Shown here: one piece after another, positions 39,534-46,899 of the stretch
Layout: every line of letters starts with the position of its first letter
Position numbering within the stretch: position 1 is the stretch's first letter
NCBI GenBank assembly: GCA_016840085.1
Contig: JAEOTA010000082.1
Location: 1-48,910, forward strand
DNA from: Promethearchaeota archaeon
GTDB lineage: Archaea > Asgardarchaeota > Lokiarchaeia > Sigyniarchaeales > SOKP01
Direction: 5' to 3'
DNA length: 48,910 nt
Position numbers and translations under genes: made by a program
Notes under the pieces: generated by a model
Told to the model about the DNA's origin: nothing
What the model saw: only the letters and a program-made list of their open reading frames with translations
Database searches by the model: none

Positions 39534-39989
39534 TTAAAATATAGAACGAAAACGGTCCTCTGTTTTTAATCTTAGATCTCCTAGAATTTCATTAATCCGA
39601 GCATCAAAATTTTTAAAATATTTAGGTTTTTTTGAAAAGATATCATTTAAAGAATAACGATTTAAAAAATAAGTAAGAATTTCACTTAATTGTTGTTTAA
39701 CAACTGAAACTTCTGTTCTTTTCTCAACAATGGCAAAAGATAATAATGGTTGTTTATTTTCAACTTCTTTACCGGGTAATTCTATCATTTCGCAGTAACA
39801 GACTAGTTTAAATGAAGCTAAAGAAATAACATTGATATCATCCCCAAAAACCTCACTAGTAAAACTCTCAAGTGCTGATAAAAACCCAGCACGTAGGTTT
39901 GGATCTAAAATATTATCCGAAGATGTATAATATTTTATCTCAAGAAGGCTTTTCATCCCTAAGTTTATACCTACTTCGAGAATTGCCAT
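39534..39989 (-). CDS. Longin-like domain protein
   Basis: DPNLRAGFLSALESFTSEVFG helix followed by beta strands and L..I...F..RY; 24-bp gap to the GTPase gene. Confidence 0.7.
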   Translation of the reverse strand: MAILEVGINLGMKSLLEIKYYTSSDNILDPNLRAGFLSALESFTSEVFGDDINVISLASFKLVCYCEMIELPGKEVENKQPLLSFAIVEKRTEVSVVKQQLSEILTYFLNRYSLNDIFSKKPKYFKNFDARINEILGDLRLKTEDRFRSIF

Positions 39990-40210: not shown

Positions 40211-41074
40211 CTATTTTAAATTTAATTGTTTTTTATATGCAGTGAAAGTATTCTGGAATAAAAAACTTACAGTTAATGGACCAATACCCCCTGGAACAGG
40301 TGTAATTTTACTACATTTATCAATAACTCCCTCAAAGTCAACATCACCACATAATTTTCCCTCTAATCTGTTTATACCAACATCAATGATTACCACACCT
40401 TCTTTAATCATCTCTTTTGTTATGAAATTTGGTTTTCTTACAGCAACAATTAAGATATCTGCATCTTTAATATACCTATCAATATTTTTTGTTGAAGTAT
40501 GGCAAATAGAAACTGTTGCATTCCTCTTTAATAACAAAAAGATAAGTGGTTTCCCTACTAAATTGGATCTATTTATAATAACGACGTCTTTACTTTTAAG
40601 TTCAATATTGTAATATTCTAAGAGCGTGATTATTCCTTTAGGAGTACACGGAGCTAGTTCTTCGTTATAATCAAAGAGTTTACCTCTATTGAGTGGAGTC
40701 AAGCCATCAGCATCTTTATCTGGGGATATTTGTGCTAAAAAAGCAGGAGTCTCATTAATTAATTCCTTTGGAAGAGGTGATTGAAGTAAAATAGCATGAA
40801 TTGTGTTATCTTCATTTAGTTGTTTAATTTTCTTTATTAAATTTTCTTTTGAAATATTCTTATCTAATTTAATTAATATAGTCTCAATACCTATTTGAGA
40901 ACTTGTTCTCTGTTTTATATTAACATAAACTTTAGAAGCAGGATCTTCTCCAATTAAAATTGTGGCTAATTTGGGTCTCACTCTTGTCTTTTCTACTGCT
41001 TTTTTTATTTTTTTTTGTAATTTTAAATTTAACTCATCAGCTAACTTTTTTCCGTCTAAAATTTTGTTGTTCAT
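40211..41074 (-). CDS. folD: Bifunctional methylenetetrahydrofolate dehydrogenase/cyclohydrolase
   Basis: ILDGKKLA, DPAS.VYV..K, KD.DG, PCTP.GI, RS.LVGKP, DVGINR, GDVDF and TPVPGG.GPLT motifs. Confidence 0.97.
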   Translation of the reverse strand: MNNKILDGKKLADELNLKLQKKIKKAVEKTRVRPKLATILIGEDPASKVYVNIKQRTSSQIGIETILIKLDKNISKENLIKKIKQLNEDNTIHAILLQSPLPKELINETPAFLAQISPDKDADGLTPLNRGKLFDYNEELAPCTPKGIITLLEYYNIELKSKDVVIINRSNLVGKPLIFLLLKRNATVSICHTSTKNIDRYIKDADILIVAVRKPNFITKEMIKEGVVIIDVGINRLEGKLCGDVDFEGVIDKCSKITPVPGGIGPLTVSFLFQNTFTAYKKQLNLK

Positions 41075-41170: not shown

Positions 41171-42265
41171 TTATATTCTTCTTTTACGCCACCAATATGC
41201 AGCAAATGCAATAATTAATCCAATAGAGCCTAAAACAATAAATAAGATCCAGTAGTTAAACTCTACCATCCAAATTTCTTTTGATAACCTAGATAATTGA
41301 GGATCAAATATTTTCAAAGTTAAAAAAGCATAATAAGAGGCTAGTATTGAAGACGCTGATTGCTCAAATCCTTCGGTTATATCAGCAAAACCTCCGTCTT
41401 GAAAGTTTTGTCGAGATAATAACCATTTAATAGTTGCAATTTTATTCAATTCATTATCTCTTATTAAAGATATAGCTTTTGCGCAATAATAAGTACTACT
41501 TAATAATGAATGTTTAGCATTGTTATCAGGTAAATATCCTCCATAATTATCGGTATCTGCGTTATTATCTACATAGAACGACTTGAGAAAACTTAAAGTT
41601 TGATTAATATTTGGTATAGTACTTAAATTTCCTAGCTCATTCAGTATGGATACAGCATGAAAAGTACTAGGTATTGTAGAGACTAAACTAATATCCCCAC
41701 CATAGCCTCCATCAAAATTATAAGTAGATAAAACCCAATCAATATGTATCGTTTTGTTTTCTATTGGTTTATCAATTAAAGAGTAAATTTGTATAACATA
41801 ATAAGTTGAACTTAAACTTGCTGATTTTGAAGCATTTGAGAGCGCAAATCCTCCACTATTTTGTTCTGTTTCATTGAGATATTTATAAATTTTGTTCTTT
41901 AAATTTTCTTCAATGGAATAATCTAAAGAATCTAAAGATCCTAATAGAAAAGAAAGATCATAAAGATCAACTGCATCCGTATCAAGTATATCTTCTATTT
42001 TTCCTTTTAAATTTTCTTGAAGCGATTCTTTTTCATGAGGATTTCTCCCAAAATGATCTAAAATATTTAACGCATAAGCAGTTGCTTCAAGAGAAATTCT
42101 ACTGTTATTAGTAATAGCATTCGAAAATCCTTCACCCTCAATTTCATTATCAGTGATGAAGTTAACTAAGTATGTATTTCTTGTTTTTCCAAAAACGCTC
42201 GGAATTATACTTAGTGTCCAAAAAAATATTAATAGAATAACAATAAAATTCCGTTTGCTTTTCAA
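41171..42265 (-). CDS. Membrane-anchored prenyltransferase/squalene-oxidase-repeat protein
   Basis: Signal peptide; repeats GGF/GGY...ST[YF][YH]...L; WLLSRQNFQDGGF; C-terminal TM plus WWRKRRI. Confidence 0.8.
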   Translation of the reverse strand: MKSKRNFIVILLIFFWTLSIIPSVFGKTRNTYLVNFITDNEIEGEGFSNAITNNSRISLEATAYALNILDHFGRNPHEKESLQENLKGKIEDILDTDAVDLYDLSFLLGSLDSLDYSIEENLKNKIYKYLNETEQNSGGFALSNASKSASLSSTYYVIQIYSLIDKPIENKTIHIDWVLSTYNFDGGYGGDISLVSTIPSTFHAVSILNELGNLSTIPNINQTLSFLKSFYVDNNADTDNYGGYLPDNNAKHSLLSSTYYCAKAISLIRDNELNKIATIKWLLSRQNFQDGGFADITEGFEQSASSILASYYAFLTLKIFDPQLSRLSKEIWMVEFNYWILFIVLGSIGLIIAFAAYWWRKRRI

Positions 42266-42418: not shown

Positions 42419-43945
42419 TTAAAGAATTTCACTTATATCCCGATATAATAAATCCTTATTAGCTTGAAATTGTTCATACGTAATAAAAAGTTGTTGAAAT
42501 GAAGGTAAACTTCCCAATACAGCTGCACCTATAAAGATCGCAAATTGAAGATTATCAGGAACAAAGAATTTAAGAATTTTACTTGATTCTGAAAGAAATT
42601 CAGTAAACTCTTGAGCCGCAGTTTTCTGCTCTAATTCTTCCGGCATTGTAGATTTTTCTAGACCCTCTATAGATCTTCCACAATATGGACAAAAGAGGGA
42701 GCTAATATCAGCAATTTCTTTATTACAATAAGGACATTTCCCCACTTCTATTATTGAATCCTTTTTTTTAGGCCTTAAATCTATTTTTATTTCAGGTAAG
42801 ATTAATCTCCCACCGCATTTGGGACAATACTCCTTTCCATTAGATAAATCAATAATTGCCCCACAATTGTTACAGGTGTCCTTTTCTTTTCTTTTTGAAA
42901 TCTCTACTGTTTGGAGTTTTAATAAATCGTTTTTGACAGTAGATAATGTAGGTTTTGGTCTAGGAATTGAACCAAGTTGAGGTAAAATTACATTTAGTTC
43001 TGTCTCAAATCTTTCTTCAAAACCATTATATGAGAGATTACCTCCTGAAAATACGATATGGGATAAAAGATCATGCCAATAATTTTTATCAACGCCGCTT
43101 AAGCAAGCAACTAAAGCTTCGGGTATAGTTATTACATTACTATAACCTAGCATTCCAGGATTGAATAAAGCTTCAGGAGCTTGATGAAGAATATAATTAG
43201 GAATGTTAATAGTTGATCCATCAGGCATAGGAACAGTAAGAGTTCCATTTCCTCTTGGTGGATTATTTGGATCTAAAACAAAATAACAATTTTTTTCTTT
43301 AATATCTTGGATTATTTCATCAGCAGCACTAGATGCTATACTAATTCCTTCTCTCATTAATAAATTTTTTAGATTATGGTTAACATCTACTCCAGCAAGA
43401 GGTACTTTCTGAACAGTATGCTGTATTATTTTGCCATTTATTATCGGAACAATCCATGTGAGACCATCCCCTGATTCAATCACTAATCCTGTTGTTAATC
43501 CAACACTAAATAATGCTAACAAAGGCGTTGGCATCATAATTAGACTTTTGACACGATGCGTTTCAAAGAAAAGCCTTGCGATATATTCTTTAGTTTCTTT
43601 TTGTATAAAAGGAGGCTCACAATAAAATACAGGATAATCAGATACGTTTTCAACCCTTAATAAAGAATAAAAAATATAGTTTAAGATTTCATAATAGCTT
43701 TCCCAGTCCATAATACTACTACGATCGATAGGATGTTTGATTTTAAGAACCCCACGCATCTTAGCAGCATCTTGCCCCACATATATACTTCTAGCGCTTA
43801 CGTCAACCATAACAGATTTATATTTTTCAGTTCCAGTAATACATGGGAATACAAATCTAGGACTAGGCTCTCCTGCAAATCCAATCTTTACATAAGCAGA
43901 ACCTATATCAATAATAATTGGTGTTCCCGATGATGGTAAGGCCAT
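42419..43945 (-). CDS. Actin-related protein with double zinc-ribbon insertion
   Basis: IIDIGS.YVK.GFAGE..PRFVFP, TTGLVIESGDG, DIKEK.CY, PEALF.P, IVFSGG and AIFIG.AVL.SL.SFQQ actin motifs; insert with CNNCG/CPKCG and CPYC/CPYCG. Confidence 0.93.
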   Translation of the reverse strand: MALPSSGTPIIIDIGSAYVKIGFAGEPSPRFVFPCITGTEKYKSVMVDVSARSIYVGQDAAKMRGVLKIKHPIDRSSIMDWESYYEILNYIFYSLLRVENVSDYPVFYCEPPFIQKETKEYIARLFFETHRVKSLIMMPTPLLALFSVGLTTGLVIESGDGLTWIVPIINGKIIQHTVQKVPLAGVDVNHNLKNLLMREGISIASSAADEIIQDIKEKNCYFVLDPNNPPRGNGTLTVPMPDGSTINIPNYILHQAPEALFNPGMLGYSNVITIPEALVACLSGVDKNYWHDLLSHIVFSGGNLSYNGFEERFETELNVILPQLGSIPRPKPTLSTVKNDLLKLQTVEISKRKEKDTCNNCGAIIDLSNGKEYCPKCGGRLILPEIKIDLRPKKKDSIIEVGKCPYCNKEIADISSLFCPYCGRSIEGLEKSTMPEELEQKTAAQEFTEFLSESSKILKFFVPDNLQFAIFIGAAVLGSLPSFQQLFITYEQFQANKDLLYRDISEIL

Positions 43946-44228: not shown

Positions 44229-45113
44229 CTAGAAAATGTTATTATAACGACTAATCAAATCTTTGAATGCTATAATTAGTTCCTTCCGCTTTTTCAATAC
44301 GTCAGCTTCAGCAAGAAGAATTTCTTTTTGTCTTTCTGCGGTTTCAATGATCCTCGGTCTTAAATTCTCTGGTATTGGTGCTCCTGTTTTTAGCATGTGA
44401 ACCCCAAGAATAATAAAATAACTAGGAGTTCCTTTACTTTTACTCTCCTCAATGATTTTTTTAATTTTATCAATTTGCTCCTTAGTAAGGGGGACTCCAT
44501 CAGATGTAAGAATTGTATTCTTATCAAAATCTTCACTGTTATTAATGATTTCATCAAGTCTCTCTTCTAAATCTTCTTTAGTCAATGGTTTGACGAAGGG
44601 AGTATCGAAGAATCTAAAAAAAAAATCTATTTCTTCCGCAGGACGAGAATATAAGTATTTATATGGATTAATTTCCACAATATATCCATTCTTATGATTC
44701 CGAATCATTTCTTGAAACTCCGTAAGCGCATTGATTTTATTCTCTAGGTAGTGATCATTAGGTCGTTTCCATCTCTGTTTTAACTCAATATCCCAGATAT
44801 CAATATCATTTATTTTTTTTTGTAAATCATTAGGAAGTCTTGAACCAGTTTTGAGTATGAGAGCTCCGAGCACCATAATATAGAGAAGCTTAAGATACTT
44901 TGGGTTATCTTGATCATAAGGATCTATCATTAATATCTCATGATAATGGTCTTCAAGGATCTCTTTGGTAAGGAGAGTCTCATCCTCGATAAACTCGTCA
45001 AAATCTAAGCCACAAATTTCAATGATGTCTCTAAATACCGCCCATTCATGGTCTAACCCATATCCGTGGATTATTCCATTGAGAATGCTAGCTTTATTTT
45101 CAGTCTCATACAT
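44229..45113 (-). CDS. Hypothetical acidic protein with two tandem helical domains (immunity-protein-like)
   Basis: Internal duplication: LTKEILED..VLGALILKTGSRLPNDLQKKI..FQEMIRNH vs LTKEDLEE..ILGVHMLKTGAPIPENLRPRI..FKDLISRY. Confidence 0.7.
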   Translation of the reverse strand: MYETENKASILNGIIHGYGLDHEWAVFRDIIEICGLDFDEFIEDETLLTKEILEDHYHEILMIDPYDQDNPKYLKLLYIMVLGALILKTGSRLPNDLQKKINDIDIWDIELKQRWKRPNDHYLENKINALTEFQEMIRNHKNGYIVEINPYKYLYSRPAEEIDFFFRFFDTPFVKPLTKEDLEERLDEIINNSEDFDKNTILTSDGVPLTKEQIDKIKKIIEESKSKGTPSYFIILGVHMLKTGAPIPENLRPRIIETAERQKEILLAEADVLKKRKELIIAFKDLISRYNNIF

Positions 45114-45187
45114 TTTAAAATAATGCTTTTTTTCTTCTAATAAAATAAAGAATAGTTTAAGTATTTAAAATTTAAGTGTGGCGTGAT

Positions 45188-46105
45188 TTACTGATTATAC
45201 AGATATTGATTGAGAAAATCGTTTAATAAACTGTTCGCAAGAATATTTCTGGCTTCAGTAGGGGAGATCCTAAACCAACTCTTACAATATCCGTATACAG
45301 CATCTCCTGCACTAACTCCAGACATCCTTCTCTGGAAAAATGGAACATTCGCTCTAATCTGAGCTGAGCTATAACCTAACTTAAAGCAAAGAGCTAAAAT
45401 AGGAGCCACTAGTTGCTTCCGCGCATTGGCAAGGGAACCCCACCATTTATAAATATATCTCTGTAGAGTAGTCTTATGCGTAAAGTGTAAATTTGCCGAT
45501 TGAAGTTCAAGTACCATCTCATTTTCATCTAAACCTCTAATGACATAATTAGATAAGACAAATTTTATGTAATCCTCTTGAGATTTACCGCCTACTTTAA
45601 TAAACTCTCTGATATCAATGAGACTTAAAGATTGAGGAGATAATTTTGCCCCATGTCTTGCAAGAAAGTCAGCCCATGAAGAAGCTCCGTATTCCTGTCT
45701 AGCAATCCTTTGTATCATTATTGTAGATATACCCCGAGGATTCTCAGATGAGCGTAATTTTGAAGAAATCTCGGTTTTTGTATTATAACCATGCTCCACA
45801 TAATTCTTGACTATTGGACCAATAAAATAATAATGCGCTTCTTTCAACAATGACCGCTCTCTTGTAAACTTACTAAACGACGCGGGAATAGTCGAGCGAT
45901 AACGCTGAGAATCGGGTTTTCTAGCCAAGAATGGCCAATGATATTTAATATTGTCTACGATATCCTGTCTAGAAATCCCCAGATAATTTCTGGAGAGAAT
46001 ATGAAGCATCTGATTGTAATCACATCCTTTCTCCAAAAGTTCTTGAAGCTTATGAAAGTGAATAAAAGACCTAGGAAGCTCTATCTCTACAGAAGTAGAC
46101 TGAAA
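45188..46105 (-). pseudogene. C-terminal fragment with about 4 HTH-like repeats; frame open from 46105 without an ATG
   Basis: Frame open 23 codons upstream of the track TTG up to TGA at 46106-46108, overlapping the end of the upstream fragment; could alternatively be an intact TTG-started gene. Confidence 0.5.
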
Positions 46106-46899
46106 TCATAATACGAAAATTTATGCCCATCATCATCCACACCATCATTATCGCCGTCATTTTCCAAGATTGTCTCATAGGGAATCACATTAATAGAACT
46201 TATGATACCCGATTCAATCGCAATCCACCCAATCGTCTCATTTTTAGTTGGAGTACCCGTTTCTGCGGATTCTTGTTGGATCTTAAATGAAGCAGGTCTA
46301 ACATCATCTACAATTGAGGTTTTAAACGCGTTATTGTTGTATGTATTTAGGGAATGAAGGATAACCGGTATTGAGCCAAAAGAACTGTAAAATGACACAG
46401 TCTCCCAAGCAGTATAGGGAGATGGCCCATGATGATTCTTATCAGTAGTAAGTATCCCTGCTTTTATTTCTGTGCCATCAGATAGAACCCACTCTCCCGC
46501 TTCCACTACCATATAGGATATCAATTCCGCTGTATGATTCCCATTATCCGGCTCTTCCATAAAGACATCACATCCATAGGCAGTCACGTTATCAATTCTT
46601 ACTTCGACACTTTCAGTTTCATGACAAGAATAGACATAGGCGACCACTATTGGATCGTTATAGGTTTCTACAAATTCTAATGAAACTACTCCTGAATAGT
46701 CGATGGTATTATCAATATTTAGATTTCCTACTTCCATTTGAAACATATGAGGTTCCGAAGGTGGGATATAATCACTTACATTTATGGTCCAATTTACTCC
46801 TACAATATATTCTCCGTCAGTTATTTCAGCTCGAATGGTTGATATCCCTTCTGAATCTTGGTCAGGAGTAAAAGTATAGGTAGAAGCAAAGAAATTCAC
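46087..46899 (-). pseudogene. Internal fragment of a surface protein (half Ig/cadherin-like domain plus H-type-lectin-like repeats)
   Basis: Begins mid-domain (TYTFTPDQD..ITDGEY..NWTINV) with no signal peptide; two repeats F...Y/F..P.V/I....E.I.Y/W...E.G; a third repeat is cut at GHKFSY. Confidence 0.6.

What the first reader, a model, noticed from the sequence alone, without database searches (positions are those of the whole stretch)
42419..43945. Actin-related protein with a double zinc-ribbon insert and substituted hydrolysis residues
Seen: the protein is collinear with actin, including a full-length D-loop (GTEKYKSVMVDVSARSIYVG vs [20 protein letters not shown]). About 125 extra residues (approx. 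42590-42965) sit at the actin ALAPSTM loop of subdomain 3 and contain two zinc ribbons (CNNCG..CPKCG; CPYC..CPYCG). The Gln137 equivalent reads Thr (MMPTPLLAL vs VAIQAVLSL) and the His161 equivalent reads Trp (GDGLTW vs GDGVTH), while the nucleotide-binding D11/K18/D157 equivalents are kept. Known: Q137 and H161 support actin ATP hydrolysis. Inference: a nucleotide-binding, hydrolysis-poor ARP acting as a filament cap, nucleator or adaptor with a built-in interaction module.
Basis: partly seen in the sequence, partly recalled or inferred. Interest (0 to 1): 0.72.

Follow-up and report, generated by a model that had tools for sequence, protein, structure and literature searches.

The report
Lokiarchaeal actin paralogue with zinc ribbons

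Summary
Observation confirmed (minus strand, 508 aa). It is a single-clade actin-related protein found in all four families of one Lokiarchaeia order, and not in 225 sampled Asgard genomes outside it. It is the orthologue of 'Ca. L. ossiferum' UYP44711.1, already placed in a tree as an 'Asgard ARP'; I found no paper on the insert. This scan found the family before on other DNA. Corrections: Gln137 is lost in 56/56 members, but Trp161 is lineage-specific (4 keep His); some members have one ribbon. Added here: all 56 keep a Lokiactin-like pointed face (Met44, Arg62) and have lost the barbed face (Tyr169, Ile287, Asp288, Arg290), where the insert sits; a second order-wide ARP shows the mirror pattern. 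Published L. ossiferum proteomics show the protein at about 1/48 of Lokiactin, and it is not among the enriched rows of the Lokiactin pull-down that I could read. Best reading: a non-polymerising, hydrolysis-poor terminal subunit that caps Lokiactin barbed ends and presents zinc ribbons (about 0.4). An Arp2/3-like nucleator is unlikely. New variant of a known kind; testable in cultured Asgard archaea.

The parts
42419..43945 (-). Actin-related protein, 508 aa ('ARP-Z'; orthologue of Ca. L. ossiferum UYP44711.1)
43886..43909 (-). Phosphate-1 loop, residues 13-20 (actin D11, G13, S14, K18 kept; G15->A)
43775..43834 (-). D-loop region, residues 38-57; Lokiactin-like and strongly conserved (actin R39, H40, M44 positions)
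43748..43759 (-). MRGV, residues 63-66 (actin 61-64, with R62), invariant pointed-face contact
43526..43528 (-). Thr140 at actin Gln137 (T, S or A in all 56 members, never Q)
43454..43477 (-). Phosphate-2 loop, residues 157-164: D154->E, D157 kept, H161->W
43421..43444 (-). W-loop equivalent, residues 168-175: actin Y166, E167, Y169 lost (barbed face)
43217..43225 (-). PDG, residues 241-243 (actin 243-245), invariant, subdomain-4 pointed face
43064..43099 (-). Actin 283-294 equivalent: I287, D288, R290 lost or variable (barbed face)
42587..42976 (-). Insert of about 130 aa in the actin 322-326 loop: Pro-rich linker, low-confidence helix, ribbon 1, linker, ribbon 2, linker, acidic EF motif
42815..42874 (-). 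Zinc ribbon 1 (Cys358, 361, 374, 377); present in every member examined
42680..42736 (-). Zinc ribbon 2 (Cys404, 407, 419, 422); homologous to ribbon 1; absent in family f32 and in the L. ossiferum genus
42422..42445 (-). Conserved C-terminal extension, residues 501-508, replacing actin's C374-F375 end
41171..42265 (-). Conserved downstream neighbour: signal peptide, prenyltransferase-like alpha/alpha toroid, C-terminal TM helix and short basic tail; functional link to the ARP not shown
40211..41074 (-). FolD, next gene in many loci; synteny marker only

Best explanation
ARP-Z is a low-abundance, non-polymerising, hydrolysis-poor actin paralogue that works as a terminal subunit. Its pointed face (D-loop, R62, PDG) docks on the barbed face of Lokiactin as a normal incoming subunit would. 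Its own barbed face has lost the acceptor residues and carries the insert, so nothing can add after it: it caps or terminates the barbed end. The tethered zinc ribbons then recruit a partner, anchor or regulator to that end. Shown: fold, residue pattern, conservation, distribution, expression level. Inferred: nucleotide binding, low ATPase, zinc binding, Lokiactin binding, capping, adaptor role.
For: Identity to the Lokiactin profile is 0.49 on the pointed face, 0.20 on the barbed face and 0.36 overall (ranges mostly from PMC10019781). Pointed exceeds barbed in 56/56 members of all four families, against 12/36 divergent eukaryote-type actins and 2/32 of the second ARP; the face-by-family interaction has p=0.0003 against random segments. 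M44 (M or L) and R62 are kept, Y169, I287, D288 and R290 are largely lost. The insert sits in the subdomain-3 loop at the barbed end. Q137 is lost in 56/56; Q137, D154 and H161 form the hydrolysis network. The L. ossiferum orthologue is seen in all 16 proteomes at about 1/48 of Lokiactin if the values are log2, the order expected of a cap, not of a filament subunit. Precedent: Arp4 and Arp8 cap the barbed end of nuclear actin (PMC6167448).
Against: The orthologue is not among the stored rows of the published Lokiactin co-IP, which run from the most enriched down to log2 ratio -1.06; 841 rows are cut and could hold it with a blank ratio, and the authors list no ARP among the hits. The subdomain-4 lateral stretch (actin 191-199) is conserved but unlike Lokiactin, and actin 199-202 are deleted in part of family f2. 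The face test was framed after seeing the alignment, six barbed-face and a few pointed-face positions came from my own knowledge, and the sequences are related. Asgard gelsolins already bind Lokiactin. No experiment on this protein exists.
Confidence: 0.4

Rival explanations
1. ARP-Z pairs head-to-tail with the second order-wide ARP (ARP-B, P0124, UYP44126.1): Z's pointed face on B's barbed face gives a closed, non-polymerising dimer that scaffolds another complex, as Arp7-Arp9 or actin-Arp4 do.
For: The kept faces are complementary. Both ARPs are order-wide. Both lack Q137. Neither appears in the stored co-IP rows (ARP-B's identifier is known only to lie in a range of five).
Against: Both kept faces stay Lokiactin-like, whereas a private pair would be free to drift together. 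The genes are not neighbours.
Confidence: 0.2
2. A stand-alone adaptor or nucleotide-sensing scaffold whose D-loop and ribbons bind non-actin partners, possibly the membrane protein encoded next door, tying it to the envelope.
For: The toroid membrane gene follows it in nearly every locus, including the deepest families. Similar ribbons occur in 23-30 other proteins of this genome. No co-IP enrichment was seen.
Against: In L. ossiferum the neighbour is about 40 times more abundant than ARP-Z and is not enriched with Lokiactin (ratio -0.02). Its homologues in two other Asgard lineages have no actin gene beside them. One ARP-Z locus (L125) lacks it. A 153-bp spacer with a T-run separates the genes. 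Its cytoplasmic tail is only about 6 residues. This reading does not explain why filament-contact residues are the ones kept.
Confidence: 0.25
3. A specialised filament-forming or co-polymerising actin with slow ATPase, with the ribbons decorating the filament.
For: Full actin fold and D-loop; hydrophobic cleft residues Y143->F, L346, L349 and F352 are kept; D154->E is conservative and some members keep H161.
Against: The barbed face is both unlike Lokiactin and poorly conserved within the family (self-identity 0.40 against 0.57 pointed), which a self-polymer would not allow. Abundance is low.
Confidence: 0.08
4. An Arp2/3-like nucleator that templates a new Lokiactin filament.
For: Low abundance and order-wide retention; Arp2 and Arp3 also carry short insertions in this loop (own knowledge, not tested).
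Against: Arp2 and Arp3 template with their barbed faces (own knowledge), the face that is lost here. ARP-B fits that role better.
Confidence: 0.07

Closest known systems
'Ca. Lokiarchaeum ossiferum' actin homologue UYP44711.1, one of three 'Asgard ARPs' in Rodrigues-Oliveira et al. (PMC9834061)
   Same: Orthologue: both published qPCR primers lie in the matching gene, same neighbours, same clade. Transcribed at a lower level than Lokiactin.
   Different: 499 aa, one ribbon, keeps His161, S14->Q, D157->C, 38% identical. The paper describes neither insert, catalytic residues nor function; a full-text search finds the accession only there.
Lokiactin (own copies P0122, P0123; best solved relative PDB 9wc4 'HC1 actin')
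   Same: Fold, D-loop motif, R62, PDG, D11/K18/K213/E214/G302; about 36% identity.
   Different: Lokiactins keep Q137, D154, H161 and both filament faces, have no insert and occur across Asgard classes.
Eukaryotic nuclear Arp4 and Arp8
   Same: [quoted passage not shown]
   Different: No zinc ribbons described in those papers; Arp8's insertions cover the pointed end, which is intact here; they work in chromatin remodellers. Resemblance of principle only; orthology not tested.
Dynactin Arp11 (own knowledge)
   Same: An actin paralogue used as a filament end-cap because one face is lost.
   Different: Arp11 caps the pointed end; ARP-Z has the opposite polarity, and ARP-B has the Arp11-like one.
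Double zinc ribbon PF12773 and zinc-ribbon PF13248, PF13240
   Same: Both ribbons pass the gathering scores; a common module in this genome.
   Different: Inserted inside an actin fold; no such fusion was found outside this order.

Membership tests
Actin family (PF00022) | Actin fold and profile match above gathering score | tested here: met
   224.8 bits against 27; TM 0.92 to F-actin
Lokiactin | Falls in the conserved Lokiactin clade | tested here: not met
   Own clade 100/100 outside Lokiactin plus eukaryotic actin; grouping with its own order's Lokiactin rejected, p-AU 0.007
Lokiactin | Q137, D154, H161 kept | tested here: not met
   T140, E157, W164; the 27 Lokiactins keep all three
Lokiactin | Both longitudinal filament faces kept | tested here: not met
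   Barbed face identity 0.20 against 0.74 for Lokiactins themselves
Asgard ARP group of UYP44711.1 | Orthology by tree, synteny and published primers | tested here: met
Arp2/Arp3-type nucleator | Actin-like barbed face to template a daughter filament | tested here: not met
Arp2/Arp3-type nucleator | Phylogenetic grouping with Arp2 or Arp3; ARPC subunits present | not tested
   No labelled Arp2 or Arp3 sequences were at hand; grouping with eukaryotic actin and Arp1-like rows was rejected, p-AU 0.004
Arp11-type pointed-end cap | Pointed face lost, barbed face kept | tested here: not met
   Opposite pattern in 56/56
Nuclear ARPs (Arp4, Arp8) | HSA-helix binding in a chromatin remodeller | not tested
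   No search for an HSA partner was made
Barbed-end capping protein (function) | Binds and blocks the barbed end of Lokiactin | tested here: inconclusive
   Surface pattern fits; absent from the readable part of the published co-IP
Pseudo-ATPase | Binds nucleotide without measurable hydrolysis | not testable with these tools
   Residue pattern only
Double zinc ribbon (PF12773) | Two CxxC..CxxC ribbons above gathering score | tested here: met
   32.7 bits against 27.3; 8 Cys invariant in 121; zinc binding itself not measured
WH2 / beta-thymosin motif in the insert | Profile match of residues 322-357 | tested here: not met
   No WH2 match up to E=10 in 9 members

The most novel reading that the evidence does not exclude
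One order of Lokiarchaeia has evolved, apart from eukaryotes, a pair of one-faced actin paralogues that close the two ends of a Lokiactin filament: ARP-Z at the barbed end with zinc-ribbon adaptors, ARP-B at the pointed end. This would be an archaeal dynactin-like or length-limiting filament system in which an actin paralogue is itself the barbed-end cap.
Probability: 0.25. Interest if true: 0.85.

Novelty: new variant of a known kind. Interest (0 to 1): 0.57.

Why it matters
What Asgard ARPs do is open: Lokiactin regulation is at present ascribed mainly to gelsolins and profilins (PMC13716822). This family is kept in both cultured Lokiarchaeia, and the one-faced surface pattern gives a polar, testable prediction for it and for its mirror paralogue. 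If true, specialising actin duplicates into end-binding parts, the step behind Arp2/3 and dynactin, also happened in archaea. If false, it remains a lineage-specific ARP with a common zinc-ribbon module.

Tried and rejected
RNA runs for the MK-D1-like locus: none was listed. WH2-like reading of the insert helix: no support. ESM Atlas search with the insert: no usable hit. Shorter homologues of the insert are only cut pieces of the same family. PDB sequence search with the neighbour: nothing. Sigma-70 promoter and terminator scan: no more than chance. Assembly chimera rejected (121 close homologues). True loss in genome G040 rejected: its syntenic contig ends about 1.5 kb from the gene pair. 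NCBI names giving Thor-, Odin-, Hod- or Heimdallarchaeota for 70%-identical hits were not taken as range, since no sampled genome of other orders has the gene. Three papers on actin interfaces and ARP insertion hot spots were not held.

Full report
1. Observation. The gene lies on the minus strand at 42419-43945 and encodes 508 aa. Pfam gives Actin (E 1.9e-66) and a double zinc ribbon at 358-423. The alignment to yeast actin is gapless across actin 108-210 and confirms Q137->T140 and H161->W164 with D11, K18 and D157 kept; it also shows D154->E, G15->A, H73->R, N111->I and K336->Q. Actin similarity stops at residue 323 and resumes near 451-456, so about 130 residues (42587-42976) are inserted in the 322-326 loop. 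A model from a 141-sequence alignment has pLDDT 85.7, with a core above 90, ribbons near 80 and disordered linkers; it superposes on F-actin at TM 0.92 by target.

2. Family and range. At least 120 homologues of 61-94% identity carry the same insert; all eight Cys and W164 are invariant among them. In 301 Asgard genomes the full-length gene is in 67 of 68 of the window's family and 6 of 7 of the sister family. The first miss is a contig break; the second genome is 76% complete and also lacks FolD. The order's two other families have it in 5 of 5 genomes. None of the 225 sampled genomes outside the order has a match beyond the actin core. With the insert removed, the family is one clade (100/100) whose branching largely follows taxonomy, outside Lokiactin plus eukaryotic actin. 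Grouping it with its own order's Lokiactin alone, or with eukaryotic actin, is rejected; grouping both ARPs with that Lokiactin is not (p-AU 0.07), so its origin is unresolved. The deepest family has one ribbon and a D-loop of Lokiactin length; the two ribbons are homologous, so duplication, or loss in some branches, is likely. Such ribbons occur in 23-30 other proteins of this genome.

3. Link to published work. A 6.0-Mb closed genome carries the published primers of the four L. ossiferum actin genes; both primers for UYP44711.1 lie in the orthologue. That gene was placed among 'Asgard ARPs' and is transcribed severalfold below Lokiactin (PMC9834061). I found no paper that mentions the insert. 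This scan's notes report the family from many other genomes.

4. Nucleotide site. Across 56 members D11, G13, K18, E214 and G302 are invariant and K213 nearly so; Q137 is T, S or A in all; D154 is E in 53; H161 is W in 39 and H in 4; S14 is E or Q in 18; D157 is replaced in 19. In actin, Q137 places the attacking water and D154 and H161 activate it; Q137A slows hydrolysis and the triple mutant abolishes it (PMC9646518). Low ATPase is therefore a fair inference and nucleotide binding is plausible for this member, but neither is shown. The second order-wide ARP also lacks Q137 and H161, so the substitutions alone are not special.

5. Surfaces. In F-actin the D-loop and subdomain 4 (pointed face) dock on the W-loop and residues 283-294 (barbed face) of the next subunit (PMC10019781). 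Against 27 Lokiactins, this family scores 0.49 identity on the pointed face, 0.20 on the barbed face and 0.36 overall; the second ARP scores 0.32, 0.44 and 0.40; the interaction has p=0.0001 by label permutation and 0.0003 against random segments. Every one of 56 members has pointed above barbed; 2 of 32 second ARPs and 12 of 36 divergent eukaryote-type actins do. M44 and R62 are kept; Y166, E167, Y169, I287, D288, R290 and E270 are largely lost; the insert and a C-terminal extension lie at the barbed end. The test was framed after seeing the data, some positions were added from my own knowledge, and relatives are not independent, but the pattern holds in all four families.

6. Expression and partners. 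In the L. ossiferum proteome tables (bioRxiv 10.1101/2025.11.30.690169), gene order and masses identify the locus: GNAMCCOK_01003 (31.93 kDa) and 01004 (41.88 kDa) match FolD (31.95) and the membrane neighbour (41.9), so 01005 is the ARP, which also fits the accession offset. It is present in all 16 samples at mean 16.12 against 21.69 for Lokiactin, about 48-fold lower if the unlabelled values are log2. It is not in the stored co-IP rows, which reach from the most enriched to ratio -1.06, with 841 rows cut; the paper lists gelsolins, a profilin and an Arf GTPase as hits. This is mild evidence against stable, abundant binding to Lokiactin.

7. Neighbour. A gene for a signal-peptide, alpha/alpha-toroid, C-terminally anchored membrane protein follows in nearly all loci, down to the deepest families. 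It is, however, about 40 times more abundant than the ARP, not enriched with Lokiactin, found without actin in other Asgard lineages, and separated by a 153-bp spacer with a T-run. I treat it as an old linkage whose meaning is open.

8. Mechanism and verdict. Most likely the protein adds once, through its pointed face, to the barbed face of another actin-fold subunit and ends the stack. Lokiactin as that partner (barbed-end cap with zinc-ribbon adaptor) 0.40; the second ARP 0.20; non-actin adaptor 0.25; own filament 0.08; nucleator 0.07. It is a member of the actin family and of the UYP44711.1 group, not a Lokiactin, and works at most like Arp4, Arp8 or a reversed Arp11. New variant of a known kind; interest 0.57, because it is real, undescribed in papers I could reach, and testable in cultured Asgard archaea, but lineage-restricted, without functional data, and not supported by the one pull-down available.

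Noticed in passing
L003:5991-7109 (G000 C51), minus strand; L084-L113: Second order-wide ARP (P0124; L. ossiferum UYP44126.1 by primers) with the mirror surface pattern: barbed face kept, M44 and R62 lost, Q137->D, H161->R. Candidate pointed-end cap or nucleator.
   Followed up: partly
L059:578-1165 and L060:2683-3249 (L143:11729-12295): In both cultured Lokiarchaeia that second ARP is directly preceded, on the same strand, by a Ras/Rab-family GTPase gene.
   Followed up: partly
window 41171-42265: The toroid membrane protein's L. ossiferum orthologue is among the 75 most abundant proteins, close to Lokiactin; no function known. One Atlas look-alike cluster has Ribophorin II hits in 14% of members, a weak lead only.
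   Followed up: partly
L001:1310-2449 and L002:6167-7309: The genome holds two Lokiactins 96% identical; one lies on a 2.9-kb contig and its core is identical to that of another genus, so it may be contamination (genome 7.6%), though several relatives also give two Lokiactin-level matches.
   Followed up: no
window 44229-46899: The three ORFs upstream of the ARP have no counterpart in any related locus examined; they look like a local insertion, with an H-type-lectin-like fragment at 46087-46899.
   Followed up: no
window 39534-39989: A 151-aa protein 68-82% identical across the family, between FolD and a DRG-type GTPase gene, with no Pfam or NCBIfam match; longin-like by eye.
   Followed up: no
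L057:1-2493 and L058:1480-3810: Two genomes of other Lokiarchaeia orders encode very divergent actin-like proteins of about 780-830 aa, twice actin's length, that keep Q137; the extra part was not examined.
   Followed up: no
L034:6463-8118, L050:1174-2670: In part of family f2 the subdomain-4 stretch at actin 199-202 is deleted, S14 is E or Q, and a long acidic helix follows the ribbons: the family diverged further in the lineage of the cultured species.
   Followed up: partly
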